A stretch of 55,890 nt of DNA from an uncultured Anaeroplasmataceae bacterium (GTDB lineage Bacteria; Bacillota_I; Bacilli_A; Acholeplasmatales; Anaeroplasmataceae). Where the stretch lies: contig CAPSSR010000002.1 in the NCBI GenBank assembly GCA_948701955.1, positions 1-55,890 on the forward strand, read 5' to 3'. Positions within the stretch are counted from its first letter, which is position 1. Every line of letters starts with the position of its first letter. A program made the position numbers and the translations under genes. The notes under the pieces are model-generated. The model saw only the letters and a program-made list of their open reading frames with translations. It was not told the origin of the DNA and searched no databases. Below are positions 18,593 to 43,971 of this stretch, in pieces.

Positions 18593-19627
18593 TTAGATGA
18601 ATGCCTCATCAGATTCATCATCTTCATCTTTTTTGATTATGTAATGATTCTTGGTTGTAGAAACATCATTATGCCCTAATAATTTTTGAGCAACCTCTGC
18701 TGATTTATGCTCATACACAACAATATTGGTCGCTCTGCTTTCACGGAATAGGTGAGGATGTACTCTGCGTCCTACAATTTTTGTAAACAATCCTTGGCAC
18801 CACCCGTTAAAAGTATCTTCTCCAACCTGGCGAGTAGTTCCATCTTTCTGCTTAATTACAAACATAAAAGGACAGTCATCATCACCACGAATTTCTAACC
18901 ATTTTTTCAGCCAACACATAGCATCTTCGCCAAATTTTAATTTTCTCTGTTTGCCAACAATAGAAGCACCTTTACACCGGATCGTATGAGTTTGATACGA
19001 TTTAGATACTGCTTCTTGTTCATTTCCATCTTCATCAATTATCTTGATTTTCTTTTCTTTTGGTTCATAGTCTACAACTTCTTTGAGAAGTTGTCTTGCT
19101 TCTGCACGTCTACAGCCAGTGGAATAAGAAAAGACTAAGTAAGCTAATTTTTGCCATTCCTCACGTTTTTCTAATTCTTCACAAAGCATTACATACTCAT
19201 CTGGTGTAAGAGGAACTTTCTCATGCACATATCCTGTCTTAACTACTTTTAATCCAACTGTAAAATTACGAAATGTGGGATATTCGTCTTCATACATCAT
19301 CATTATATAATTACAAAATGAACTGACGCTTGATTTTTTGAATTTAATAGCTGAATCAGATAATCCTCTATTTGTAATCCAGTTTAAATATCTTACATAT
19401 TCTTTCTTCTTTATATCAAGAAAACTTTTATTATTAAGATTCTGCTTAACCCAGTAGAAAAATATCCGCAATCCTGATTTGTAAGCTATTTTTGTTTTTA
19501 TGGATAAATCGGTTTGGTTATCCAAATATTCCTGAACCATGTTTCTATTGAATTCAAGAACTTCAGACCACATTTTATCGGTTATATCATCACTACGTTT
19601 TGCATTCTTGCCATCCACATTTATCAC
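18593..19627 (-). CDS. int: tyrosine recombinase / phage integrase
   Basis: 344 aa; catalytic signature GCRRAEARQL ... HPHLFRESRATNIV ... LLGHNDVSTTKNHYI (R-HxxR-Y); SAM-like N-terminal domain. Confidence 0.85.
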   Translation of the reverse strand: MINVDGKNAKRSDDITDKMWSEVLEFNRNMVQEYLDNQTDLSIKTKIAYKSGLRIFFYWVKQNLNNKSFLDIKKKEYVRYLNWITNRGLSDSAIKFKKSSVSSFCNYIMMMYEDEYPTFRNFTVGLKVVKTGYVHEKVPLTPDEYVMLCEELEKREEWQKLAYLVFSYSTGCRRAEARQLLKEVVDYEPKEKKIKIIDEDGNEQEAVSKSYQTHTIRCKGASIVGKQRKLKFGEDAMCWLKKWLEIRGDDDCPFMFVIKQKDGTTRQVGEDTFNGWCQGLFTKIVGRRVHPHLFRESRATNIVVYEHKSAEVAQKLLGHNDVSTTKNHYIIKKDEDDESDEAFI

Positions 19628-24858: not shown

Positions 24859-25052
24859 GTATCAATTCTTATAATTGGATTGCTATTTTCAATTAAATAA
24901 TTCGCTAATCGTTTACTTTTACAAACAAACAATGAAATTTTCCTTTCATGAATATATTTTTATATTTTCTAACATTTATATTTTTAAAATTTGTGGGCTG
25001 TTGACGAAGAGCCATACTACGGAGGTTTATTTTACCAAAACAAACAAAGGAA

Positions 25053-25128
25053 TCGGGGATCAGGGACTCGAACCCTGGGCAAACATAGTTTATAAGACTA
25101 CTGCTCTAACCAACTGAGCTAATCCCCA
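25053..25128 (-). tRNA. tRNA-Ile (anticodon TAT), tentative identity
   Basis: Acceptor (T)GGGGAT/ATCCCCG, D-arm GCTC-AGTTGGTTA-GAGC, anticodon stem GTAGT/ACTAT with loop CTTATAA, T-arm CAGGG-TTCGAGT-CCCTG; variable region about 7 nt. Confidence 0.65.
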
Positions 25129-25687
25129 AAAGAAATAAGTGGAGATGCCACCAGAACGGTAGCGCCACCACCTATATAGGAGAAAAATATATGAAGAAAG
25201 AGTGCAATTATCAGATGCTTGAAACAGGACTGAAATGCTGATTTGTGATTTCAACCAATTTGTCATCAGCATTACACTGATGTAATTAACCATATCAATC
25301 ATGATTAATAAAAATCTTTAAAATATTTGCTGTTAATTTTTTCGTATCTTCACAAAAAATTATGTTCAAAAAGATAAGATTGACGCAACGGTTGTCATGA
25401 TTTTAAGTTTTCATTATAGCAAATTACTAGAATTGCAAAATAACATAATTGGCAAATTGCAACGTGCTTAACGAAGATTATATGATATCATATAGGTATA
25501 CTTGATGCTTGGAAATGTTTCCTAACAAATCTGTTATGCACAATGTGTCTTTCGTTTTCATAATTCGATATTTTTTGGACAATATCATACTCGCAGCATT
25601 ATACTTTATCTGCGACTAAAGCGGTTGACCACCACAAAACGCTTATTTCAACCCTGTTGCAAGCATCTGATAGTGGAAGAGGAGTGG

Positions 25688-32290: not shown

Positions 32291-33343
32291 CTAGTTGATC
32301 TCCTTTACTTTGTTATTAATGTTATATTCCATAGTATCTGCCCATGATTTAATAGCATGAACCGATCTAATATATCCTTCTCTTTCTAATTCTGGAATTT
32401 CATTAATCTTGTCTGTCAACCAAATATATCCCCCAACTTGTTCAATAAAAGTTGCAATTTTTGAACAGAATAATAGAGTAGAATCTTTTAATTTTTTCTC
32501 ATATTGCGTAACTTGTGAATTATCATTCATTATTTCTATTTGTTTTCGTAAATCTTGAAGTTCTTTTACTTTTTCATCAAACTGAGTCTTTAACTGCTTA
32601 TAATCAAATTTGTAATCTTGAAGTTCTTTTTTTGTTGAATCATAATCTTCTGGTTTTGGAGGGTTACTTTTTAATTCTTTAATTTCATCAATATATTTCT
32701 GCATTTCTCTTTTTGTGATTTTCTTTGTTGTGTCAAGTGATGAAATTAGTTCTAGTTGTTCATTATCTGTAAGTTGTCTTATCATAGCAAGAGCAGTAGT
32801 AGGCATTACAATACCAGTCTGCACTAAGTCATCGAGCTCAGGTATCATGTCTGACAACATCTTATAATTCTGTAAATTTTGAACAGTCATTCCCATATCT
32901 TTAGCAAGTTGTTCCTGAGTTTTTGAGGGTTTAAAATTATTTGTAACCCTATTATGTTGGTTGTTTCCATTCTCAATTCCATATAATCGTTCTAATTCCT
33001 TAATTCTCTTTCCAACTTTTTTTGCCGATCCACCAATTTCGCCACGCCTACGAATATTTGACTCCAATAAATCCAAAAGAATCTCATCATCAGAATTATA
33101 AATTCTTATTTCAGATTCAATGACTGGAATATCAAGTTCTTTAAATGCCCGTACTCGTTGATGTCCAGAAACAATTACCTTATCTTGTGTAATTATTATT
33201 GGTTCAATGTTTCCACGCTTGTTTTCTTTAACTCGTTTTCTGATAGATTCCAAAAGTTCTTCCCACTTATCACCTGTAATATCATCAAAAAACTCATTGT
33301 TACGTGAGTGCGCCTTTAATTCATTAATATTAATCTGTTGCAT
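32291..33343 (-). CDS. ParB-like nuclease/partition domain protein
   Basis: 350 aa; PIIITQDKVIVSGHQRVRAFKELDIPVIESEI matches ParB/Srx N-terminal domain; HTH TQEQLAKDMGMTVQNLQNY. Confidence 0.65.
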   Translation of the reverse strand: MQQININELKAHSRNNEFFDDITGDKWEELLESIRKRVKENKRGNIEPIIITQDKVIVSGHQRVRAFKELDIPVIESEIRIYNSDDEILLDLLESNIRRRGEIGGSAKKVGKRIKELERLYGIENGNNQHNRVTNNFKPSKTQEQLAKDMGMTVQNLQNYKMLSDMIPELDDLVQTGIVMPTTALAMIRQLTDNEQLELISSLDTTKKITKREMQKYIDEIKELKSNPPKPEDYDSTKKELQDYKFDYKQLKTQFDEKVKELQDLRKQIEIMNDNSQVTQYEKKLKDSTLLFCSKIATFIEQVGGYIWLTDKINEIPELEREGYIRSVHAIKSWADTMEYNINNKVKEIN

Positions 33344-34855: not shown

Positions 34856-35761
34856 TTATTTCTCCTTTTTTGAAAGCATCTTAGCAGCCAATTCATCAAA
34901 TATATTTCTTGGTTCATTGGAACTAATATTTTCAGCTATATGTAACTTCTCCATAATAGAATCCAATGTTAGTGTAAACATATCACGTATATCCTTGTAG
35001 TGATTGACTACATCTATCACATATGGATTAGTATCTAGGGCAAACTCCGATTTATAAGCATCTACATAATCATTTAATTCAATACTGTAAATGTCTTCTG
35101 TTTCTTCGATTACAAGATGTATAATCTCTGATAATTGTAGCTTTTCTTCACGATGCGTATTCACATAGGAGAGGAGAGTGTTGAGTTTCTTAAATGTATT
35201 GGTTTTCCAACGAGAATACTTCTTTTCTGGTAATTTCTTCTTGTTAGATTGTTCTTCTAATTTGGAGAGGCGGTTGTCCATCGATGTCAATAACTCTATC
35301 AATTTCTTATTTGTATTGTTATCAGAAATGGATTGTAATTTCTGTGCTGCAACTCTTAACCCTTGCTCACAGGCTATAAAGTATTTACGAGCTTCTTGGC
35401 CACGTTCATTTTTGACAGTCATGGAAATATGTTTTGCAAAATCTGATGTAAGTTTATAATCATATGTTGGCCTACCACCAATTTTAGGGTTTTCGCTTTT
35501 AAGGCGAAAAGGTAAATAATCAATTCCTTCAGTAGCAAATGGATTATTTAATATATTTCTTTTGCACCATGAAGAATAGTGACTAAGATTCAAACCTAAA
35601 AATTCATATAAATTTCGCAGTGTTGTCATTCCATTCTCATCAATCTTCAATGCAATCTCAATTGGAGTCTGAGATGAAGAAGCTAAATTTGAATTCGATT
35701 TTAGTGAATTGGTTTCTGGCTTTGTGATAGTTTTTGGTTTCGTTGTTTTAGTTGTTCTCAT
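34856..35761 (-). CDS. AntA/AntB-like antirepressor domain protein
   Basis: 301 aa; LYEFLGLNLSHYSSWCKRNILNNPFATEGIDY resembles the AntA/AntB antirepressor N-terminal domain. Confidence 0.45.
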   Translation of the reverse strand: MRTTKTTKPKTITKPETNSLKSNSNLASSSQTPIEIALKIDENGMTTLRNLYEFLGLNLSHYSSWCKRNILNNPFATEGIDYLPFRLKSENPKIGGRPTYDYKLTSDFAKHISMTVKNERGQEARKYFIACEQGLRVAAQKLQSISDNNTNKKLIELLTSMDNRLSKLEEQSNKKKLPEKKYSRWKTNTFKKLNTLLSYVNTHREEKLQLSEIIHLVIEETEDIYSIELNDYVDAYKSEFALDTNPYVIDVVNHYKDIRDMFTLTLDSIMEKLHIAENISSNEPRNIFDELAAKMLSKKEK

Positions 35762-36025
35762 GATTTTGTTATCTCCTTTGGACTTGTACTAATTTTTTAG
35801 GTCATGATTATTACTTCTACATTTTCATCCAAGAAAGTTAAAAAAGTATTAGTATGTATTTTTAGGTAGGAAAGTGGTTTGTGGGAATAATGTAAAATAT
35901 ATCTCCCTTATGAATGGATTATCATATTCATTTTATATCTCTACTTTTGTCTTGTTTCTTATATAAGTTTTGTAATAAAAAAATAAGACAGATGAAAATC
36001 ACCTGCCTTAAATATTCTTTCTAAA

Positions 36026-37060
36026 TTATTCCGTTATATTTTCTGCCATAAGCCAATTTGATTCTGGCTTTGCTATAAGACGAGCATCCATGTATGCCAT
36101 CTCCATTGATAAGCATGTAGTTGCCTGATAATATCCATTTTTCATTAAGTCTAACACTAAAGCAACATCAGGACTATCATCTTTACCAAAACAAAGCGGT
36201 ACAAGTAACTGAATTTTATTTTGATAATAATGTGGAACAGCTAATTTATAATTTGCTGTTACTTTTTGAATGGCGGTATCAATAACGCCTTTTAGGGTTT
36301 CTAATGGTCTGGCGCTATTTTTAATAGAGTCTGGTAATCTTTGTGACGTGTTTAAGTCATCAAGTATATGTTTGTAATTCTTATTTACATTAAGATGCCA
36401 ATTAAATACTAATCTTGATGGATCAGAAAAGTAATCTGCTCTTTCTGGAAATCTTTCAATATCAAGGCTACCCAACTCATAAGTGTCCTTAAATCCTTTA
36501 AAATACCATTTTGCGGTATTTTCAGATACATTTTTATTAATTTCGCCATAGGCATATATTGGCTCATAGTATTTTGAAAATAATCCAGTATCAAAAGCAC
36601 AATATGTATCAGTTTCTATTACTTTGCCTTCCTCTTGCAATTTCATAAATGTATATTTTAGATAGTTCTTCAGAATGTAGTTATCGTCTTTATCTTCAAA
36701 ACTCCATTTTTCTTGAAGTGCTTTATCTGCTAATTTTTGGATTTGCAGATTATAATCTCCCCAGTACATATAGTTATAAATATCAATGGTTTCCATATAG
36801 TCACCCTCCGTTGATGAAGATAATGCTTGTCTGATTATATCATGTTTTCTGGAAATACAAAAGAAAGACTTGGGAAATTTTATCTCACCTATAAAGAAAT
36901 CATATGGAGCATCATGATAATCCATTATGGTGATAGGAGCCATCCCTTTCTCAATCCTTGCCTTAAAATATGCATCACTTTCATTATCTGCATAGATTAC
37001 CATGATGTCAGAAAAAATAGAATGATATTCTTTTGTTACGGGTATCAAATAAGTATTCAT
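36026..37060 (-). CDS. hypothetical protein
   Basis: 344-aa ORF. Confidence 0.45.
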   Translation of the reverse strand: MNTYLIPVTKEYHSIFSDIMVIYADNESDAYFKARIEKGMAPITIMDYHDAPYDFFIGEIKFPKSFFCISRKHDIIRQALSSSTEGDYMETIDIYNYMYWGDYNLQIQKLADKALQEKWSFEDKDDNYILKNYLKYTFMKLQEEGKVIETDTYCAFDTGLFSKYYEPIYAYGEINKNVSENTAKWYFKGFKDTYELGSLDIERFPERADYFSDPSRLVFNWHLNVNKNYKHILDDLNTSQRLPDSIKNSARPLETLKGVIDTAIQKVTANYKLAVPHYYQNKIQLLVPLCFGKDDSPDVALVLDLMKNGYYQATTCLSMEMAYMDARLIAKPESNWLMAENITE

Positions 37061-38109
37061 GAAAGTTATCTCCTTTGCATCTTTGGATATATTATTGCTC
37101 TGATTATTGTATCTGTGTTCAGCTATACGAAATCAATCTATTCTTTCTCTATCTAGCAGAAGAGCAGATAAGAAAAAACGAAACATAAATGATAGGCTTC
37201 TCTGCAGTATTTTTTCTTATAGATGTATATGGTATGCCAAATCATAAGACTACGTAATGATTTTTTGCCCAAATTCGCTTATAGAAGAAGCATAGGTATA
37301 TTTTATAAGATATGATACTATTTTACGAAAATGGGCCTCAAATCATTTGTGTACGTTATAATGCCAGCAAATTGCTTTCTGCTTTATGTTCAATCTGTAT
37401 TTGGTACTTATTCATTAAAAAAATCTCCGTATTATTTTTTGCATTAGAGCCATAAAATATTATTCTCTTTTTTGTCAGGATATTTAATGAGTTCGGTGAT
37501 GGATGGTATTTGTCCTATTTTTGGATTACGAAAGATATTGATTCTACTGGATGAACTGCATTTTTGCATATATGATTCGTTAGCTTCTTCTAATGAATAT
37601 ACTTAGCAAATATGAAATTCTGAGAAGGGTTCGAGAATATGCTGATTTTATAAGGGATTTTAATATTTTTAGAGGTAATTTTTTCGATTTTGAATGCTGG
37701 AATAATTGTCTGAAAATTTATTTGTGGTTGATTTCGATGGATTTTAGAGGATTGGCTTCGAAGTGCTAACCGAACTGTTTTTTGAATTGTGTAGAAGTTT
37801 GATGCAATTTGGGGATGATAGGTGGAGTCAAAATTTTAAGCTGATGTGAGAATGGAACTGATAAGCGCTTTTGAGGCTTTGACAATCCATTTTAAAATGT
37901 AAATATACCCCCCATATGTCAATATTTTGAGGTATGAGCACCCATAAACAAAACCGCATATTTACTTGTTTTCAAGTTACAAAAATGTTGTATTCATAAC
38001 TTTATATATAGGTCTGATATGTCAACAAATAATCAATTTTGTAATCAGCTATAAGTGGTCATCTATCCATCGCACTTGATTAAAATATATCAATAAAAAA
38101 TTTAAATAT

Positions 38110-38176
38110 ATAAACCTATCGTGCTGGTATGTTAATGAATATAAACTTATTAACATACTAACATAGTAGGTTTATA
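38110..38176. repeat. nested inverted repeats (cruciform-capable palindrome)
   Basis: Outer ATAAACCTAT / TAGGTTTAT (38110-38119 / 38167-38175); inner GTATGTTAAT / ATTAACATAC (38127-38136 / 38149-38158). Confidence 0.6.
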
Positions 38177-38711
38177 GGTGGTTCGGCAACTGTATTAGTC
38201 GGCTAATACGGTTTTGATAAAACAACAAATATACTATTTCCAAAACAACATATCTACTAAAAACCTATTAAAATCTATTGATAATCATCTTAAAAAACAG
38301 GCCTACATTAAACTATGCAACAAATATACAAAATAGTAACATGATAAACACTCTAATAAACACAATAGCACATCAACCATCGCTCCATCATATCATACCC
38401 TACATGTCATCTTTACATCAATAGCACATGCACACAATAACCATGCGCACATGTGCTATACCAGTGCTATATCATTTATTTGCCCTATATACCGCATTTA
38501 TCCCCTAAACCCAACAACTATACCGTCACTACATTTCAGCCCCTATTTGCCCTAAATAGGCCTATACAGTGCCATAATAATCGCTGACTCTAATCAGTCA
38601 CTACTCCATCATATGAACCAATTTCCATCAACCTTCCATCATGAATCCCTTACTATCCAGATTATCCAGATCTGCTTCAATCAGTCCCTTGATATAAGCA
38701 GCGGCGTTATA

Positions 38712-38954
38712 TTATTCAAACACTTTTTTAGTGTCCCTTGTTATAACCTGTATATCACAATCTAGTAAATCCATCATTTTCTTGAAGTCTGAAAAAGAAT
38801 AGTTCCCACGGCTGATTTTGTTTCTTAAAGATTGCGGCAATATATCCATTTTTGCGGCCATTTCAGCAATGTTTGTATGTCTTTCTAATAGTAATTGATT
38901 TATCACTTTCTTTTCGTCCATATCATTTACCCTGATCCTTTGGTTGAATATCAA
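38712..38954 (-). CDS. XRE-family HTH transcriptional regulator
   Basis: 80 aa; HTNIAEMAAKMDILPQSLRNKIS helix-turn-helix. Confidence 0.6.
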   Translation of the reverse strand: MIFNQRIRVNDMDEKKVINQLLLERHTNIAEMAAKMDILPQSLRNKISRGNYSFSDFKKMMDLLDCDIQVITRDTKKVFE

Positions 38955-39213
38955 TAATCAAATCGCAATCCATCGCATTACATAATTCTAGCAATATCTT
39001 TAAACTAGGGTTTTCTGTACGATTGTTTAACAAATTACTGATAGTTGCTTTTGTCCATCCTGTAGCATTGCATAAATCTTTTTGTTTTACATCTAAGTCA
39101 AGCATTAAATGTTTAATCATTAGAGTGACATCTGAAATATTCCCATTGTATTTTACCATTTCTGACCTCCCATAATATACTATATCATATCTTGATAAAT
39201 ATTGTAAATACAA
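38923..39213 (-). CDS. XRE-family HTH transcriptional regulator
   Basis: 96 aa; KQKDLCNATGWTKATISNLLNN helix-turn-helix; overlaps downstream HTH gene by 32 bp. Confidence 0.6.
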   Translation of the reverse strand: MYLQYLSRYDIVYYGRSEMVKYNGNISDVTLMIKHLMLDLDVKQKDLCNATGWTKATISNLLNNRTENPSLKILLELCNAMDCDLIIDIQPKDQGK

Positions 39214-39376
39214 TACTTATTATCTGTTTTTCTATATCATATCATGAAATAACAAAACATTTTAACAGATAAGTATTGACATAGCAATAATAGTATTGTA
39301 ATATAGACTTACCGAAAGGAAAAACAAAAACAGAACATTTGTTCTGAAATAAGAAAACGAAAGGTAGGCATATAAT

Positions 39377-39691
39377 ATGAAAGAATACAGAAAAATAACA
39401 AGAATTGATAAAACAGATAGCTATTCCCCAATAGACATGTACTACACTGCTGAGTATACCGAATACAGAGAAGATGGAATCATAAAATGCAAAGGCACTG
39501 AGGATTTTTCTGGCGAAAGAAAAAATACTTTGCATAGTTGGGATATATGTGTCCCAACTAATAAAACAAATAAAGGTGGACATACAATATGGGATAAAGT
39601 CGATAATATAACTACCACTGATGCAAAAAACGCTAAAAAGATAGCAACTTTTAAGTATGGTAACAAAGTCCAGCTAAGAAAAATAAGATAA
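39377..39691 (+). CDS. hypothetical protein
   Basis: 104-aa ORF divergent from HTH pair. Confidence 0.4.
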   Translation: MKEYRKITRIDKTDSYSPIDMYYTAEYTEYREDGIIKCKGTEDFSGERKNTLHSWDICVPTNKTNKGGHTIWDKVDNITTTDAKNAKKIATFKYGNKVQLRKIR

Positions 39692-39888
39692 TAAATCCCC
39701 TGAAGAGTCTTTGAGAATTAAGACGAAACTACCCACACAAAGGGTAGTCGGGATAGTAACACAAGTAACAATCAATATCCCTAACCGTACCTTGATAATT
39801 GAATAGGCTTTACACCTTCCAGACAATCCGTTATAATAAGATTGTAACAGTATATACTACCATGACAATCAAAAAGGCGGTGAAAGGA

Positions 39889-40068
39889 TGGTACAAGAAA
39901 TGTCTGATAAAGAATTGATTACGGTAACTATTGACAGATACACAGATTTACAAAGGATCAAGAAAGCAAATGGCAACAATGAAAATGCAGAACTTGACTA
40001 TCAAATTAAAGTAGTGACTGCAAAGTTATCTTCTTTAGGCGTAAATGTTGAAGATATAACGCTTTAAT
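39889..40068 (+). CDS. small hypothetical protein (59 aa)
   Basis: ATG after RBS aaaggatgg; followed by strong terminator. Confidence 0.3.
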
Positions 40069-40096
40069 CACAACTGAATAGCAAACAATAAACCAA

Positions 40097-40145
40097 AAGG
40101 TGTAAAGTCTATTGAGTTATCAAGGCTTTACACCTTTTTAATTTA
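40097..40145 (+). terminator. rho-independent terminator
   Basis: 11-bp stem AAGGTGTAAAG / CTTTACACCTT followed by TTTTAATTT. Confidence 0.6.
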
Positions 40146-40154
40146 GGAATAATC

Positions 40155-40163
40155 TGGTATAAT
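40155..40163 (+). promoter_or_regulatory. extended -10 promoter (TGgTATAAT), copy 1
   Basis: tggtataat 36 bp upstream of the 40199 ATG; same leader ATTGGgaaggtgagaa-ATGGCGATA as copy 2. Confidence 0.45.
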
Positions 40164-40198
40164 AAATTATCTATATTGGATTATGGGAAGGTGAGAAC

Positions 40199-40423
40199 AT
40201 GGCGATACATACAAATAAAGAATTGTCCCAGGCTGTACAGGACGCAATAAAAGAATCTGGTATCAAGAAAGTATTTATTGCTGAAAAGTTAGGAATTAAG
40301 CGTGAAGTATTTGCAAGAATGCTAAACAAAAAGCAATTTTCACTTGACGATGCTAATAAAATATTAGATATTATTGGATTCCAGACCGAAACAAAGGTGA
40401 TAAAAAAAGACACGAAAACGTGA
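40199..40423 (+). CDS. small HTH DNA-binding protein (paralog 1)
   Basis: 74 aa; MAIHTNKELSQAVQDAIKESGIKKVFIAEKLGIKREVFARMLNKKQFSLDDANKIL. Confidence 0.55.
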   Translation: MAIHTNKELSQAVQDAIKESGIKKVFIAEKLGIKREVFARMLNKKQFSLDDANKILDIIGFQTETKVIKKDTKT

Positions 40424-40432
40424 TGAAAAATG

Positions 40433-40461
40433 TTGACAAGTAAAAGCACATATGCTATTAT
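40433..40461 (+). promoter_or_regulatory. sigma-70-like promoter
   Basis: TTGACA - 17 bp - TATTAT. Confidence 0.45.
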
Positions 40462-40500
40462 ATACTTGTAAGGAATACAGGGATTAAAAATTGGTATCAC

Positions 40501-40551
40501 GGCAGAGTCAATAAGACCATGATACATCCTCAACATGGCAGCGTCAATAAG
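40501..40551. repeat. direct repeats GGCAG(A/C)GTCAATAAG x2 (candidate operator sites)
   Basis: 15-bp repeats at 40501-40515 and 40537-40551 between the two HTH paralogs. Confidence 0.5.
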
Positions 40552-40744
40552 TCCAGGAGCAAAAAGAAAAATCCCCATTCCTTGACAGAAACAGGGAAAT
40601 TTCAAGAAAAGTGCATAAACACTTTTCCCCAAGCAAGGAAAGTATAACACAATTCTTGATGATCTGTCAATCGGCAGAATTTCCCTAAAGTTTTTGGCAC
40701 CTTGAAAAGTGAATAGTGAAGTGCTAGAAAAAATCCTCAATGCA

Positions 40745-40753
40745 TGGTATAAT
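40745..40753 (+). promoter_or_regulatory. extended -10 promoter (TGgTATAAT), copy 2
   Basis: tggtataat 30 bp upstream of the 40784 ATG. Confidence 0.45.
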
Positions 40754-40783
40754 TTCCTTATCTTATATTGGGAAGGTGAGAAT

Positions 40784-41050
40784 ATGGCGATAAAAACAAA
40801 TCAGGAGCTGGCGGATTTTGTCAAAAAAGCTATAAAAGCATCTGGAATTAAAAAAAATAGTATTGCGGAAAATATAGGATTGTCAAGACAAGGATTGGAT
40901 AACTTATTAAATAAAAAATCATTCTCACTTGACGATGCAAACAAAATATTAAATGAAATTTCATTATCTGCTAGTGTGGAAATACAAAGCGAAATTTTAA
41001 AAATTTTCCAAACAGACAAGCTAAATAAATTGCTGGAAGAAAAGCAATAA
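40784..41050 (+). CDS. small HTH DNA-binding protein (paralog 2)
   Basis: 88 aa from ATG at 40784; MAIKTNQELADFVKKAIKASGIKKNSIAENIGLSRQGLDNLLNKKSFSLDDANKIL, clear paralog of the 40199 product. Confidence 0.55.
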   Translation: MAIKTNQELADFVKKAIKASGIKKNSIAENIGLSRQGLDNLLNKKSFSLDDANKILNEISLSASVEIQSEILKIFQTDKLNKLLEEKQ

Positions 41051-41078
41051 AATATATTGCAAAAAAGCAATAAAATAG

Positions 41079-41107
41079 TTGACATTGATTCTAAAGTGTG
41101 GTAATAT
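41079..41107 (+). promoter_or_regulatory. sigma-70-like promoter facing the GC-rich ORF-free region
   Basis: TTGACA - 17 bp - TAATAT. Confidence 0.4.
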
Positions 41108-41119
41108 AAATACAGTTAA

Positions 41120-42790
41120 GGAAATAGAAAAGCCGCTCCTCAGCTACCAACTAACGAAGCGACTTTTCCCGAAACCACTTAAAAGTGATTGCTCTTATTC
41201 TAACATTTCATTATTCACTTTTCAAGTGTTTTCGCACAAGTTTCCAAAACAAAAATCATAAAGCTGTAAAAATGTTCAGATTCCATGGCAAGCCGAAAAT
41301 CAATTTTTACAGTCCAGACCGTCCAAGAAGTAGGCAGTCAGGGAGTAGCCCCTTTTGAGTACTGACACTGGAGGGTATCTGAAAGTGTAGACCTCAATTG
41401 CATGAAAAGGCTACATGCCGTATCCTTACAAGATTGTATAAGGTAGGATGCACAGGCGGGGAAGGCGTTATACGGCGTAACAGTCACTAATAATAAACCG
41501 TTTAGCGTGATACCACAAAACTTGATTAGTGTCATAGTGTGGGAAATATCCACATACTAAACAGTAATAAAATAAGGATATGTCGAAACTGTCAAAAGCA
41601 GATGGAGAAAATTGTCAGAAACGGCTATAGGCAAGATACCTTGTTTGTAGATACAAAGTAAGATGATTATTATCTGGTGGGAACCGTTAAAACGGCATAG
41701 GGGCAACGGCTATTAAAGCGTTGATGAATGCAAAGAATAAAATAAAAACTGTTTAGGATTTTAAATAGGGTAGCGATTGAAATTTGTATGTTAATAGGCC
41801 CATGTGGGGCGGCATATGAAAAGTAGTCGTTGTGTGGGCTGCCCAAGACAAAAGCCCATTGGAGCCTATACCAGACGCTGAGAAGCTTGAGAGAGATGGA
41901 GCGCAAAAGGCAGGTGAGAATACACCTGAAGGCTGAGATTGCCTTATTCCACCGCTAATTTTACAGACTGACAGACTGTGATTGAGAAAAAGCGGTATAC
42001 AAGCACATATAGGGAAAGAACCATCAAGGGCTTGTCAAGTGGCAAGCCCATTTTACATATAAAACGGACAAACAGAAAGAGAAATATCAATCATAAAGCG
42101 GTCAACTGCTTTTCAAAAAGGAACGTGATGTAAGCGCGGATTCCCCTCCGGTCATGTGGGGAATTCAAAACCATAGCAACGACAATAAGCCTATGGCATA
42201 GAATACAGATCGGGGACTACTACCTGACAGTAAATGGCTTTCCTGGTTTCAGATAGAAATAGCAAATCGGGGAATCGCTCAAGACTGGCAATGCGATTAA
42301 CAAGTTGTGCCGGCATTCCGGGAGCCTGTATATCTCCCGCAAGAAAACAGATTATACACGCATGGGAAGAGCGTTAGACTTAAATGCTGGAATAGTCAGA
42401 CGGTGCGGAAATCTAAGGAAAGTACGGTAAAAACTATCAGGATAAAAATAAATACCGTGAGCGTGTCCGTATAGCGCATTTGCATAAAAGGGTTGATGGC
42501 AAATAGAAACGGCGTCACAGGTTAGGGCGAAAGCTACTATGGCGGAGATAATAAGTTTTATTATTTACCATGCTTACAAAAACAGAATCAAACGTGCGGC
42601 GATGTAGAAAGCCGGTGAACCACCGTTACCAACGGGACATAGCCATATAGGCCGGAAGCATTTAGCCTTTATCCCTTGAAAAGTCTCTTTTGTGGGCATG
42701 GATAAGTAATAAAAGCCTTGAAAAAGTTTTGCGGTTTGACATGAAAAAAGAAGTAGTAAAGTAGTAACTAATAATATAGCTTAGGAGGTG
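41120..42790 (+). ncRNA. candidate large structured non-coding RNA (class unknown)
   Basis: About 1.5 kb with no credible ORF (stops in all frames); GC clearly above the roughly 30 percent background; purine-rich on plus strand; many GC-rich hairpins (GGGCTTG/CAAGCCC, CGGGAG/CTCCCG, CCGTT/AACGG, ATTCCCC/GGGGAAT). Confidence 0.3.
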
Positions 42791-42795
42791 TCTAA

Positions 42796-43971
42796 ATGCA
42801 ATTTAAAATTTATGAGGAAAATATGGAACGGTTAGAGAAAAAGATTGCCAGGATTAGCAAGAAGTGTGAAAAGTATGGCAATTATTTTCGCTATGAAGTA
42901 GTTGGCGAGGAATTTGTAGAGAAATATGATGAAGAATTGAGAAAAGATGTAGTTTTAAGGTATGTTATTGTAGAAGCAGAGGGTACAGCCATAATTAATA
43001 ACTGGCGTTTCATCGCATTGGTAGAGCATACAGGCACGACATATGGAAATGTAATCAAAAGTTGCTGTGACATAGAAGTTCCTGAAAGATATTATACAAG
43101 TCGGCCGATTTGTGAACATTGCAAAAGCAATCGGCCTAGGAAAGATACGTATATTGTACAAAATATTATAACTGGTGAATTTAAGCAAGTCGGCAAATCA
43201 TGTCTGATGGATTTTACTTATGGAATGAGTGCGGAAGGCGTGGCAAGATATATCAGTTTATTTGATGAATTGATTCAAGGAGAGGCGATAGAGCCAGGAT
43301 GCCATAAAATCCATTATATTGATACCAAAACAGCATTATGTTATATAGCGGAAACCATTCGACATTTTGGATATGTCAAGGCTGATGGAGTCAGATCGAC
43401 AAAACATAGAGCTATGGATTATTATAGTGTAAGAAATGGATTTTCTACATTTGTGCCAAAATGTGATTTGAAAGAAGAGATGGAAAGTGTAGAATTTGAT
43501 CCTTTTTCTGATTACGCTAATGAAATGGTTTCCAAAGTTCTTGAATGGATTCCCAAACAAGAAGAGTCAAGCAATTACTATCACAATTTGAAAACTGTAT
43601 GTACAATGAGGTATATAGGTTTTGACAAGTTTGGAATCCTTGCAAGCTTGTTCCCAGCATACGATAAAGCGATGGAAAGGGAGAGGCAGATTATAAGCGA
43701 AAAAGAAAATGAAAAAAATTCTGAATATGTAGGCAATGTCGGAGATAGAGTGACCATTGAAATTGCAGACCATAAAGTCATAACAAGCTGGGAAACGGAA
43801 TGGGGCATGACAATGATCCATAAAATAACCGATACAAATGGGAATATCTATACCTGGAAGACGAGTAAAGGAATTGATGATAAGATTAAAAAGATTGTTG
43901 GAACGATTAAAGACCATATCGAATATTATGGAGCCAAACAGACAGTAATTACAAGATGCAGAACATCATAA
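42796..43971 (+). CDS. hypothetical protein
   Basis: 391 aa; RBS aggaggtg; Cys cluster CEHCKSN...GKSC; no family recognised. Confidence 0.5.
   Translation: MQFKIYEENMERLEKKIARISKKCEKYGNYFRYEVVGEEFVEKYDEELRKDVVLRYVIVEAEGTAIINNWRFIALVEHTGTTYGNVIKSCCDIEVPERYYTSRPICEHCKSNRPRKDTYIVQNIITGEFKQVGKSCLMDFTYGMSAEGVARYISLFDELIQGEAIEPGCHKIHYIDTKTALCYIAETIRHFGYVKADGVRSTKHRAMDYYSVRNGFSTFVPKCDLKEEMESVEFDPFSDYANEMVSKVLEWIPKQEESSNYYHNLKTVCTMRYIGFDKFGILASLFPAYDKAMERERQIISEKENEKNSEYVGNVGDRVTIEIADHKVITSWETEWGMTMIHKITDTNGNIYTWKTSKGIDDKIKKIVGTIKDHIEYYGAKQTVITRCRTS

What the first reader, a model, noticed from the sequence alone, without database searches (positions are those of the whole stretch)
38712..41111. Divergent regulatory cluster: two overlapping XRE HTH genes facing a tandemly duplicated promoter-plus-HTH-gene unit, with paired direct repeats between the copies
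On the minus strand, two XRE-type HTH genes overlap by 32 bp. On the plus strand, two paralogous small HTH proteins (40199-40423 and 40784-41050; MAIHTNKELSQAVQDAIKESGIKK... versus MAIKTNQELADFVKKAIKASGIKK...) are each preceded by the same TGgTATAAT extended -10 and the same leader ATTGGgaaggtgagaa-ATGGCGATA. The duplication therefore included the promoter. Between them lie a TTGACA-17-TATTAT promoter and two 15-bp direct repeats GGCAG(A/C)GTCAATAAG, 36 bp apart, plausible operators. This looks like a lysis-lysogeny or immunity switch with a duplicated arm, possibly a repressor plus anti-repressor or two immunity specificities.
Basis: seen in the sequence. Interest (0 to 1): 0.5.

Follow-up and report, generated by a model that had tools for sequence, protein, structure and literature searches.

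The report
Phage switch region with antisense sRNAs
This is the early-gene control region of an uncultivated gut (Lachnospiraceae) phage: the two small DNA-binding genes are old, separately conserved members of one family, not a fresh duplication, and the supposed operator repeats are the loops of an RNA hairpin pair that sits beside two uncatalogued antisense small RNAs and a hammerhead ribozyme.

Summary
Most of the raw observation holds. There are two plus-strand paralogous HTH genes (54% identity) with the same TGGTATAAT promoter and a similar leader, a TTGACA-17-TATTAT promoter between them, and two exact 15-nt repeats 36 nt apart. The 32-bp overlap of the minus-strand genes comes from choosing a TTG start. 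With ATG starts the two genes are 1 nt apart.

The interpretation needs revision in two places.
- The paralogs lie in the two deepest clades of a phage-specific XRE-fold family, and the promoter and leader are family-wide. This is not a recent duplication that carried its promoter along.
- The 15-nt repeats recur as a pair in 13 related phages, always in the loops of two hairpins whose stems covary, just downstream of a promoter. They are more likely RNA than operators.

Better operator candidates are a palindrome and half-sites at 39200-39304.

Each paralog is followed by a rightward consensus promoter that faces a leftward promoter. The leftward promoter drives a conserved, terminated ~70-nt sRNA with strong covariation that matches no Rfam family. 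A hammerhead ribozyme sits at 39695-39754.

The best reading is an early-control region that combines HTH regulators with cis-antisense RNA control. It is a new variant of a known kind, of moderate interest.

The parts
38712..38921 (-). Small gene (69 aa, MDEKK...). It is weakly HTH-like and translationally coupled to the upstream gene.
   Evidence: DUF6471 E 2e-4 (below cut-off), HTH_26 E 0.006, and a weak CII-like PHROG hit. Called as 69 aa in L124 and L125.
38923..39159 (-). XRE-type HTH gene (78 aa). It is the candidate CI-like repressor.
   Evidence: HTH_26 4.9e-12, HTH_3 1.3e-7 and phrog_3 repressor 1.2e-8. Homologues lie upstream of par genes in L129, L135, L138, L141 and L150.
39179..39304 (.). 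Divergent promoter and operator region. It holds the leftward promoter (39208-39179), the rightward promoter (39276-39304), the palindrome TATTGTAAATACAATA (39200-39215), and GTATTG half-sites at 39273 and 39293 that overlap the -35 and -10.
   Evidence: The same kind of palindrome lies at the early promoter in L129 and L138.
39377..39691 (+). First rightward ORF (104 aa), with no family match.
39695..39754 (+). Type I hammerhead ribozyme. Predicted cleavage is after C39749.
   Evidence: The complete catalytic core is present and the MFE fold is a three-way junction, z -3.3. Homologues in L319, L332 and L348 have covarying stems II and III, and 200 shuffles gave 0 hits. Rfam scores are 28.5-31.8 bits, E 0.022, below the gathering threshold.
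39790..39837 (+). Half-hairpin motif CCTTGATAATTGAATAGGCTTTACACC, complementary to 40097-40125. It overlaps the promoter TTTACA-17-TATAAT (39809-39837).
   Evidence: Inverted repeat I2: 29 nt, 90%. Promoter. The same arrangement occurs in 8 of 23 distinct hairpin loci, and in L123 it encloses a different ORF.
39888..40067 (+). Small ORF (59 aa) enclosed by the inverted motif pair.
   Evidence: There is an 83% homologue upstream of a par gene in L133.
40095..40138 (+). Conserved terminator-like hairpin (type-1 upstream module), followed by a T-run.
   Evidence: Inverted repeat I23: 16 nt, 94%. Present in 23 distinct related loci.
40155..40423 (+). parA cassette: the extended -10 TGGTATAAT (40155-40163), the leader, and the 74-aa XRE-fold gene (40199-40423).
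40433..40461 (+). Rightward consensus promoter TTGACA-17-TATTAT, directly after the parA stop codon.
   Evidence: Conserved at the same position in all M1 examples.
40494..40559 (+).
   Evidence: 13 distinct homologues. 84% of cells are paired against 29-46% when slid, with 7 pairs changed on both sides.
40563..40670 (-). sRNA-1 unit: leftward promoter TTGACA-18-TATACT (40670-40641), RNA of about 72 nt (40634 to 40563), terminator at 40597-40572.
   Evidence: 14 homologues. 20 consensus pairs, 9 of them compensatory, with U.G pairs on this strand. 79% conserved in L122.
40700..41050 (+). parB cassette: the type-2 element CCTTGAAAAGTGAATAGTGAAGTGCTAGA (40700-40732), the extended -10 (40745-40753), the leader, and the 88-aa gene (40784-41050).
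   Evidence: The 113-aa public gene call from a GTG start is an over-extension, judged against the family N-terminus.
41079..41107 (+). Rightward promoter TTGACA-17-TAATAT (with TG), directly after the parB stop codon.
   Evidence: Conserved in all M2 examples.
41121..41226 (-). sRNA-2 unit: an inverted copy of the type-2 element acts as the promoter TTGAAA-17-TAGAAT (41225-41197). The RNA is about 70 nt (41190 to 41121), with two hairpins and a terminator capped by an invariant GUUGGUAGC.
   Evidence: (I1). The covariance model found 36 hits. 91% of cells are paired and 22 of 24 pairs change on both sides.

Best explanation
Window 38712-41230 is the early-control region of a probably temperate Lachnospiraceae phage.

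LEFTWARD
A translationally coupled pair of small genes runs leftward. One is a clear XRE-type repressor candidate. It faces the early rightward operon across divergent promoters that carry a 16-bp palindrome and two half-sites. These are the likeliest operators.

RIGHTWARD
The operon is a chain of short, individually conserved cassettes:
- orf104
- a hammerhead ribozyme
- orf59, enclosed by an inverted motif pair and a terminator hairpin
- the parA cassette
- the parB cassette

parA and parB are deep-branching members of one phage-specific XRE-fold family of about 70 aa. Each brings the family's own TGnTATAAT promoter and Shine-Dalgarno leader. They were either brought together by modular recombination or kept from an ancient duplication. 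They were not duplicated recently.

Directly after each par stop codon there is a consensus rightward promoter. It faces a leftward promoter that makes a terminated ~70-nt sRNA (sRNA-1 and sRNA-2). Each sRNA is fully complementary to the start of the rightward transcript.

SHOWN
- The genes and their protein fold.
- Conservation and covariation of the RNAs, and their strand.
- The hammerhead core.
- The recurring architecture in related phages.

INFERRED
- The HTH proteins set promoter activity. Candidate sites are the palindrome and the heptad-repeat type-2 element that flanks parB in inverted orientation.
- The antisense sRNAs throttle or time rightward (delayed-early) transcription, by transcriptional interference or by RNA duplex formation.
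- The two-hairpin leader binds a protein or RNA partner.
For: PARALOGS AND FAMILY
- Paralogy and shared promoter and leader.
- The promoter and leader are shared family-wide.
- The two genes sit in the deepest split of the family tree.
- XRE fold: pLDDT 89, with matches to HipB, C-proteins and the 434 repressor.
- Family size: 138 clusters and 373 representatives. There is no homologue in isolate phages.
- Hosts are Lachnospiraceae, including chromosomal scaffolds.
- The window encodes a tyrosine recombinase, an Ant-like protein and a ParB-like protein.

CASSETTE ARCHITECTURE
- The type-2 element occurs only twice in the window, inverted on either side of parB, with 0 expected by chance. The same inverted pair occurs in L139, L142, L144, L150 and L151.
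- Loci found by DNA pattern alone still have a par gene between the M1 hairpin pair and the M2 module (the rightward promoter plus the sRNA-2 unit). These are L011, L031 and L171.

sRNA-2
- 19 distinct homologues.
- All fold into the same two hairpins, z -3 to -5.9.
- The MFE is far lower than for the opposite strand.
- The covariance model found 36 hits. All but one weak hit lie on the strand opposite par.
- 91% of cells are paired against 35-59% when slid, and 22 of 24 pairs change on both sides.

sRNA-1
-.

TWO-HAIRPIN LEADER
-.

HAMMERHEAD
-.

OPERATORS
-.

FREQUENCY
- About half of the par copies are followed within 0.4 kb by one of the two antisense modules.
Against: - There are no expression data. 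Every promoter and transcript end is predicted, and promoter-like sites in the region are not more frequent than in shuffles.
- The strand of the two-hairpin element is ambiguous on energy grounds, because the opposite strand often folds better. A promoter upstream and G.U pairs in L171 and L026 favour the plus strand. C.A mismatches in the window and in L327 favour the minus strand.
- The alignment behind one search was fitted to the model, so it leans towards the proposed structure.
- Modules are not tightly tied to par subfamilies. This weakens the idea that each HTH protein controls its own cassette.
- The repressor candidate is only 78 aa with no oligomerisation or cleavage domain, and the first rightward gene is not an HTH gene. 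The layout is therefore not a textbook CI/Cro pair.
- A temperate lifestyle is inferred, not shown.
Confidence: 0.6

Rival explanations
1. A recent tandem duplication copied the promoter and HTH gene together. The two 15-bp direct repeats are DNA operators bound by the HTH proteins. Together these form a duplicated arm of the lysis-lysogeny switch.
For: - The paralogs share the -10 box and the leader.
- The repeats are exact and unique in the window.
- Tandem pairs exist in two other lineages, L134/L320 and L139/L184.
- Fused two-domain family members hint that two copies can act together.
Against: - The two copies are only 54% identical in protein and 70% in DNA, and they sit in the deepest split of the family.
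- Copy A is 88% identical to a gene in L136, and copy B is 93% and 77% identical to P0002 and P0003.
- The promoter and leader are family-wide.
- The sequences flanking the repeats form hairpins whose stems covary across 13 phages. A double-stranded operator does not need this.
- The repeats occur next to par genes of different subfamilies.
Confidence: 0.1
2. The repeated elements are mainly shuffling and insulating cassettes. Promoter-plus-terminator modules serve as recombination points, in the way PeSLs do in T4-type phages. The leftward units act as terminators or insulators between cassettes. Their short transcripts are by-products with no regulatory target.
For: - The same flanking motifs enclose different ORFs in different phages: window orf59 against a 97-aa ORF in L123.
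- Homology blocks begin and end at these elements.
- Modules combine freely with par subfamilies.
- The window and L124 differ by swapped segments between conserved blocks.
Against: - A pure insulator does not need a conserved promoter with a good -10 on the leftward copy only. The leftward copy is TAGAAT in all cases, while the rightward copy is TAGAAA, TAGACT or TAGACA.
- It also does not need an invariant apical GUUGGUAGC or a conserved 5' AAUCAC in the RNA.
- The sRNA body is conserved beyond what a terminator requires.
Confidence: 0.2
3. The two-hairpin leader is a cis-acting antitermination or protein-recruiting RNA, comparable to lambda nut or HK022 put. It would let transcription from the promoter at 40433 read through downstream terminators. 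This can coexist with the antisense model.
For: - The two stem-loops lie immediately downstream of a strong early promoter in every example.
- The loops are conserved while the stems covary.
- The region is dense in terminator-like hairpins. In several relatives a par gene follows the conserved hairpin with no promoter in between, which implies read-through.
Against: - There is no sequence or structure match to put, nut or any Rfam family.
- No N-like or Q-like protein was identified.
- The loops are large (about 14 nt) and the hairpins are weak, with an MFE of only -9 to -20 kcal/mol for the pair.
Confidence: 0.2
4. The 36-nt-spaced repeats are a short type III antitoxin-like or other processed repeat RNA.
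For: The period of 34-36 nt and the position after a promoter resemble ToxI-type arrays (established knowledge).
Against: - There are only two units, alike over 25 of 36 nt at 84%.
- No ToxN/AbiQ-like gene follows. The next gene is an 88-aa HTH gene.
- The same pair is followed by different genes in relatives.
Confidence: 0.03

Closest known systems
Lambdoid CI/Cro immunity region (lambda, 434, P22)
   Same: - A small XRE-fold HTH repressor gene is transcribed divergently from an early operon.
- Palindromic sites overlap both promoters.
- The par proteins have the same fold class as the 434 and lambda repressors and Cro-type domains.
   Different: - The repressor candidate is only 78 aa with no C-terminal domain.
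- The first rightward gene is not an HTH gene.
- The Cro-like genes lie 0.8-1.4 kb downstream, each with its own promoter, and there are two of them.
- There is no sequence relationship to the classical proteins beyond the shared fold.
Phage and plasmid cis-antisense RNA controls: P22 sar/ant, lambda OOP/cII, P1/P7 c4, and plasmid countertranscripts such as pIP501 RNAIII (established knowledge)
   Same: - Face-to-face promoters.
- A 65-80 nt terminated sRNA with two hairpins, fully complementary to the 5' part of the opposing transcript.
- A location inside the immunity or early region.
   Different: - The sRNAs overlap an untranslated 5' leader, not a ribosome binding site.
- There are two different sRNA families in series.
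- They do not resemble any catalogued family.
- The apical GUUGGUAGC is invariant across phages, which a purely cis-acting antisense RNA does not require.
Coliphage 186 pR/pL convergent-promoter switch (PMC5001618, PMC7498355)
   Same: Convergent promoters 75-170 bp apart in a lysis-lysogeny region, so transcriptional interference is a plausible mode of action.
   Different: In phage 186 both transcripts are long mRNAs for regulators. Here the leftward product is a short terminated RNA, and the arrangement occurs twice.
T4-type PeSL mobile regulatory cassettes (established knowledge)
   Same: Repeated promoter-plus-stem-loop elements flank small ORFs in a plastic early region. The same elements enclose different ORFs in different phages.
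   Different: The sequences and the phage group are unrelated. Here the elements occur as inverted pairs, and one copy drives a conserved sRNA.
Type I hammerhead ribozymes of phages and prophages, including the RAGATH-1 variant (Rfam RF00163, RF03152)
   Same: - The full catalytic core: CUGANGA, GAAA and the cleavage triplet GUC.
- Three stems with stem I open.
- An intergenic position in a phage operon.
- Relatives carry twister ribozymes at equivalent places.
   Different: It scores below both Rfam gathering thresholds. The upstream hairpin of RAGATH-1 is not convincingly present.

Membership tests
XRE / Cro-C1 HTH family (Pfam HTH_3, HTH_26; lambda-repressor-like fold), for parA and parB | Score above the curated Pfam threshold | tested here: not met
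   parA scores 19.8 bits on HTH_26 and parB scores 20.1, against a cut-off of 22. parB scores 19 on HTH_3 against 23. Several family members do carry precomputed PF13443 or PF01381 hits.
XRE / Cro-C1 HTH family, for parA and parB | Compact helical bundle with a helix-turn-helix, superimposable on solved XRE proteins | tested here: met
   The AlphaFold model has pLDDT 89.3, with helices at 6-20, 24-30, 35-42 and 49-59. Foldseek against the PDB gives HipB, C.Esp1396I, C.AhdI, 434 and lambda repressors and SinR, with probability 0.9-1.0 and TM up to 0.78, although E is at best 0.025.
XRE / Cro-C1 HTH family, for parA and parB | Sequence-specific DNA binding | not testable with these tools
   This needs EMSA or footprinting.
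CI/Cro-type bistable switch | Repressor and early promoters are divergent and share repeated palindromic operators | tested here: met
   The promoters lie at 39208-39179 (leftward) and 39276-39304 (rightward). The palindrome is at 39200-39215, with half-sites on the -35 and -10 of the rightward promoter. A similar palindrome occurs in L129 and L138. The promoters and the assignment of operators are predictions.
CI/Cro-type bistable switch | A Cro-like HTH gene is the first gene of the rightward operon, next to the operators | tested here: not met
   The first rightward ORF (39377-39691) has no HTH match. The par genes start 0.8 and 1.4 kb downstream and have their own promoters.
CI/Cro-type bistable switch | The repressor has a dimerisation or autocleavage domain | tested here: not met
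   The protein is 78 aa and contains the HTH domain only.
Cis-antisense sRNA control module | Convergent promoters that give overlapping transcripts | tested here: inconclusive
   The promoter pairs 40433/40670 and 41079/41225 are predicted and conserved in relatives. No transcript data are available.
Cis-antisense sRNA control module | A discrete structured sRNA with its own terminator | tested here: met
   sRNA-2. sRNA-1. G.U pairs and U-runs assign both to the leftward strand.
Cis-antisense sRNA control module | A regulatory effect on the opposing transcript | not testable with these tools
   This needs reporter or knockout experiments.
Hammerhead ribozyme, type I | Conserved core nucleotides and a three-stem junction | tested here: met
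   The core elements are C39700-A39706 (CUGAAGA), G39725-A39727 (GAA) and U39748-C39749. The MFE fold is the three-way junction, z -3.3. Three homologues have covarying stems II and III, and position N7 is A, U or C.
Hammerhead ribozyme, type I | Rfam gathering score | tested here: not met
   RF03152 scores 28.5-31.8 bits against 56.3. RF00163 scores 20.1 against 34.
Hammerhead ribozyme, type I | Self-cleavage | not testable with these tools
   This needs in vitro transcription and a cleavage assay.
Type III toxin-antitoxin (ToxIN, CptIN), for the 36-nt-spaced repeats | A tandem array of near-identical repeats followed by a terminator and a ToxN/AbiQ-family gene | tested here: not met
   There are two units alike over 25 of 36 nt. 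The downstream gene is an 88-aa HTH gene.

The most novel reading that the evidence does not exclude
The par cassette would be a previously undescribed RNA-based immunity or timing module that is widespread in Lachnospiraceae phages and prophages. It consists of a small XRE-fold gene, a 5' leader that displays two conserved loops, and a convergent sRNA with an invariant GUUGGUAGC cap. In this phage, two different cassettes in series would gate successive rightward transcription units with two different antisense RNAs. The conserved loops would mediate a specific RNA-RNA or RNA-protein contact that goes beyond simple cis-complementarity.
Probability: 0.3. Interest if true: 0.6.

Novelty: new variant of a known kind. 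Interest (0 to 1): 0.45.

Why it matters
Lachnospiraceae are major human and animal gut bacteria, and their phages are almost entirely uncultivated. How these phages choose between lysis and lysogeny is unknown.

This region gives a concrete and testable parts list:
- a small HTH family with no homologue in isolate phages;
- two conserved antisense sRNA families, a two-hairpin leader and a ~190-nt structured RNA, none of which match any Rfam family;
- self-cleaving ribozymes embedded in the early operon.

If the sRNAs do gate early transcription, this would be an RNA-heavy variant of the classical phage switch. It would also supply candidate motifs for RNA family databases and for prophage annotation in gut genomes. 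If they do not, the finding is an ordinary mosaic early region.

Tried and rejected
- **Stop-codon reassignment for the ORF-free stretches.** No long ORFs appear under the TAG, TGA or TAA recodings.
- **Isolate-phage matches.** There is no near-identical or distant DNA match in isolate phages and no protein homologue of parB there.
- **Using the neighbouring 391-aa gene to fetch relatives.** This returned one 5-kb contig with a different upstream region, which was not informative.
- **Exact-pattern scans.** The leader pattern gave 0 hits. The 15-mer alone and the loose double-repeat pattern gave mostly chance hits. Only L011, L026, L031 and L171 were real. About half of the hits to the M2 pattern (the rightward promoter plus sRNA-2 module downstream of parB) were chance hits.
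- **RNAalifold on a plain MAFFT alignment of sRNA-2.** It failed because the stems were misaligned. I replaced it with per-sequence folds and a covariance-model alignment.
- **A trans target for the GUUGGUAGC loop.** Matches to GCTACCAAC in the window are at chance level, and the one at 42625 lies in a variable hairpin.
- **Strict co-evolution of par subfamily with flanking module.** Not found.
- **A small toxic peptide in the leader or sRNAs (type I TA).** The 42-aa ORF at 40519 has no Shine-Dalgarno sequence, and its ATG is absent in L137. Neither sRNA has an ORF (read directly from the sequences).
- **Type III antitoxin reading.** Rejected because there is no toxin gene.
- **A 'hairpin 0' at 40465-40481.** Dropped because the predicted start site falls inside it.
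- **One mis-specified pattern.** It had the wrong spacer length and returned nothing.

Full report
**Context.** The window is an AT-rich (33% GC) phage genome segment. It carries a portal protein, a terminase, tail genes, an HNH endonuclease, four tRNAs, a tyrosine recombinase (18593-19627; PF00589 E 1e-17), a ParB-like protein and an Ant-like anti-repressor. It has no close relative among isolate phages. Near-identical metagenome contigs exist (L124-L128, 98-99.9% identity).

**Checking the observation: the leftward genes.** The two minus-strand genes are real, but the 32-bp overlap is not. It appears only if the downstream gene starts at the TTG at 38954. The ATG at 38921 (MDEKK...) lies 1 nt after the TGA of the upstream gene (38925-38923). 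Public gene calls on L124 and L125 give 69 aa and 78 aa with exactly that 1-nt spacing. The 78-aa protein is a clear XRE-type HTH (HTH_26 E 4.9e-12). The 69-aa protein gives only sub-threshold HTH, DUF6471 and CII-like matches.

**Checking the observation: the rightward paralogs.** The plus-strand paralogs are confirmed at 54% identity over 67 aa, E 3e-22. Both have TGGTATAAT and a related leader. The alignment from the -10 to the ATG scores 20.5 against -1.7 +/- 3.1 for shuffles, and copy A has a 5-6 nt insertion. The 60 nt upstream of the -10 are unrelated. The TTGACA-17-TATTAT promoter and the two exact 15-nt repeats 36 nt apart are present.

**The HTH family.** I call the two paralogs parA and parB for convenience. 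parB has 138 relatives among the 90%-identity clusters. A profile search finds 373 representatives at 50% identity with E <= 1e-3. No source gives these proteins a name, and no homologue exists in 50,697 isolate-phage records. The consensus is MAIKTNQELAQAVNxAIKESGIKKTxLAEKIGLSRQGLDxLLxKQSFSLDDANKILNxI. An AlphaFold model (pLDDT 89) is a four-helix HTH bundle plus a C-terminal helix. It matches HipB, restriction-modification controller proteins, the 434 and lambda repressors and SinR. Pfam scores for the two window proteins are just below threshold. Genomic hits are in Lachnospiraceae. Some lie inside large chromosomal scaffolds, such as Konateibacter massiliensis and Lachnospiraceae bacterium A4 and COE1, which implies prophages.

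**Not a recent duplication.** In a neighbour-joining tree of 122 family members, the common ancestor of parA and parB spans the whole tree. Of 120 other members, 116 are closer to parB than parA is. parA has an 88%-identical counterpart in L136, and parB has 93% and 77% counterparts. The TGnTATAAT box and the aGGAAGGTGA leader precede family members in many unrelated phages. The shared promoter is therefore a family trait and not evidence that a duplication carried the promoter along. Homology of the window to L122 and L123 starts exactly at the -10 (40745), so this is a module boundary.

Among 64 distinct loci of at least 5 kb, 10 have two or more copies. Three of these, including the window, have same-strand neighbours. 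Some family members are natural fusions of two such domains: P0123, P0145 and P0161. This is a hint that two copies can work together.

**The repeats are RNA loops.** The pair GGCAGNGTCAATAAG recurs about 35 nt apart, in the same orientation as par and 25-40 nt downstream of a promoter, in 13 distinct related sequences. In each case a repeat sits between short inverted flanks, and these flanks differ between phages:
- Hairpin 1: GUAUCA/UGAUAC, AUCA/UGAU, CACAAGG/CCUUGUG and GUCAUGUGG/CCGUAAGAC.
- Hairpin 2: CUC/GAG, CCGU/ACGG and CCC/GGG.

On a plain MAFFT alignment, the two-hairpin structure has 84% of cells paired against 29-46% with slid partners. Seven pairs change on both sides, and the covariation score is above all 500 shuffles. 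A double-stranded operator would not need covarying flanks.

The strand remains uncertain on energy grounds. The invariable upstream promoter and the G.U pairs in L171 and L026 favour the plus strand. Loci found purely by DNA pattern (L011, L031, L171) still place a par gene between this element and the downstream module, so the element belongs to the cassette.

**Two antisense sRNA units.** After each par stop codon there is a consensus rightward promoter (40433-40461 and 41079-41107). A leftward promoter faces it: 40670-40641, TTGACA-18-TATACT, and 41225-41197, TTGAAA-17-TAGAAT. Each leftward promoter is followed by a leftward terminator, at 40597-40572 and 41145-41131.

The leftward promoter after parB is the inverted copy of a 32-nt element. 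Its other copy lies just upstream of the parB promoter (inverted repeat I1, 88%). The element occurs only twice in the window, with 0 expected by chance. The same inverted pair flanks the par gene in L139, L142, L144, L150 and L151. The leftward copies always have TAGAAT. The rightward copies have TAGAAA, TAGACT or TAGACA, followed 17 nt later by the extended -10.

*sRNA-2 (about 41190 to 41121).* It has 19 distinct homologues. All fold into a small 5' hairpin plus a long terminator hairpin capped by an invariant GUUGGUAGC, with z-scores of -3 to -5.9. The energies are far better than for the opposite strand. A covariance model found 36 hits in 100 loci, and all but one weak hit lie on the strand opposite par, just downstream of it. 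On that alignment 91% of cells pair against 35-59% when slid. Twenty-two of 24 pairs change on both sides, and many pairs are U.G on this strand. The alignment is fitted to the model, so it leans towards the structure.

*sRNA-1 (about 40634 to 40563).* It has 14 homologues with a very conserved promoter. The consensus structure has 20 pairs, 9 of them compensatory, again with U.G pairs on the leftward strand. Its element is 79% conserved in L122, downstream of that phage's parB-like gene.

Neither sRNA, nor the hairpin pair, matches any Rfam 15 family even at E <= 10. About half of all par copies in the collected loci are followed within 0.4 kb by one of these two modules, but the modules are not tied to a particular par subfamily.

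**Other parts inside the coordinates.**
- *Hammerhead.* A type I hammerhead lies at 39695-39754, 4 nt after the orf104 stop codon. It has a complete core, and its MFE fold is the three-way junction (z -3.3). Homologues in L319, L332 and L348 have covarying stems II and III and a variable N7, and 200 shuffled windows gave no hits. Rfam scores are below gathering. Relatives carry twister ribozymes and skipping-rope RNA in the equivalent regions.
- *orf59 and its flanking motif.* orf59 is enclosed by a 29-nt motif (39790-39818) that is complementary to the 5' arm and loop of the conserved terminator hairpin (40095-40138). The same arrangement occurs in 8 of 23 distinct hairpin loci, and in L123 it encloses a different ORF.
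- *Operator candidates.* The divergent intergenic region has a perfect 16-bp palindrome (39200-39215) on the leftward -35, and GTATTG half-sites on the -35 and -10 of the rightward promoter. Similar palindromes occur at the early promoter in L129 and L138, which encode homologues of the 78-aa protein. These are better operator candidates than the 15-nt repeats.

**Mechanism.**
- *Shown:* gene content, protein fold, conservation, RNA covariation and strand, the hammerhead core, and the recurring architecture.
- *Inferred:* the XRE protein and the par proteins regulate the promoters, and the two sRNAs restrain or time the rightward units they overlap. The mechanism would be transcriptional interference or duplex formation, by analogy with P22 sar, lambda OOP, phage 186 pR/pL and plasmid countertranscripts (established knowledge; PMC5001618 for phage 186). 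The two-hairpin leader presents conserved loops to an unknown partner.

No expression data exist. Promoter-like sites are not enriched over shuffles.

**Verdict.** This is a switch-like early region. The 'duplicated arm with operators' is better described as two ancient family members in separate conserved cassettes, with RNA elements between them. The kind of system is known. The particular combination and the RNA families appear to be undescribed.

Noticed in passing
window 41230-42796: A 1.6-kb stretch has no ORF under any genetic code, and its GC content is 41% against 33% elsewhere. It is transcribed, if at all, from the promoter at 41079. It is a mosaic of noncoding blocks shared with many related phages: 42095-42136, 42273-42317 and 42554-42715, at 82-100% identity in more than 15 loci. 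No Rfam family matches.
   Followed up: partly
window 42556-42747 (+): A conserved structured RNA of about 190 nt lies just upstream of the 391-aa gene. It has a long closing stem and an internal multi-branch. RNAalifold on 13 sequences gives 50 pairs, 10 of them with compensatory changes, and an inner hairpin that is completely swapped between phages. It matches no Rfam family.
   Followed up: partly
window 35780-37065 and 42316-42554, compared with L124 and L126: The 99.4%-identical 77-kb contig L124 lacks the DUF3825 gene segment. It also has a different sequence between two conserved noncoding blocks, and contig L126 breaks at 42316. These are strain-level cassette swaps.
   Followed up: partly
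window 37060-38712: A second ORF-free stretch of 1.65 kb lies left of the HTH genes. Its GC skew reverses strongly, from G-rich at 37500-37900 to C-rich at 38200-38700. It has a 28-nt-arm hairpin at 38109-38176. Blocks at 37608-37913 are shared at 70-80% identity with several relatives.
   Followed up: no
L122 5739-5798 and 9225-9293; L138 6969-7038 and 8095-8164; L142 6934-7014; L144 7310-7390: Related phages carry RNA elements in the same early regions. L122 has type-P1 twister candidates (E 3e-6 and 8e-9, below gathering). L138 has type-P5 twisters and L142 and L144 have skipping-rope RNA, all above gathering.
   Followed up: partly
window 39790-39818 and 40097-40125: A promoter-like motif, CCTTGAyAAyTnAATAGrCTTTACACC, occurs as an inverted pair around a small ORF. 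The downstream copy is embedded in the terminator hairpin. The motif begins like the type-2 element (CCTTGAnAAnTGAATAG). It could act as a long-range antiterminator or an RNase III stem, or it could be a recombination scar.
   Followed up: partly
proteins P0123, P0145, P0161: Some family members are single polypeptides that contain two par-like HTH domains in tandem. Larger proteins contain 4-6 such stretches.
   Followed up: no
window 40709-41050: Public gene calls extend parB to 113 aa from a GTG start (P0001). The family alignment and the Shine-Dalgarno sequence place the real start at the ATG at 40784, giving 88 aa.
   Followed up: yes
window 39180-39191 and 39232-39243: A 12-nt direct repeat, CTATATCATATC, occurs twice, 52 bp apart. 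Each copy overlaps a leftward -10-like box, which suggests two tandem leftward promoters for the repressor operon.
   Followed up: no
window 18593-19627, 32291-33343, 34856-35761, 25052-25129: The window encodes a tyrosine recombinase with a SAM-like N-terminal domain, a ParB-like protein, an Ant-like anti-repressor and a tRNA-Ile(UAU). These are compatible with either an integrating prophage or a plasmid-like prophage.
   Followed up: no
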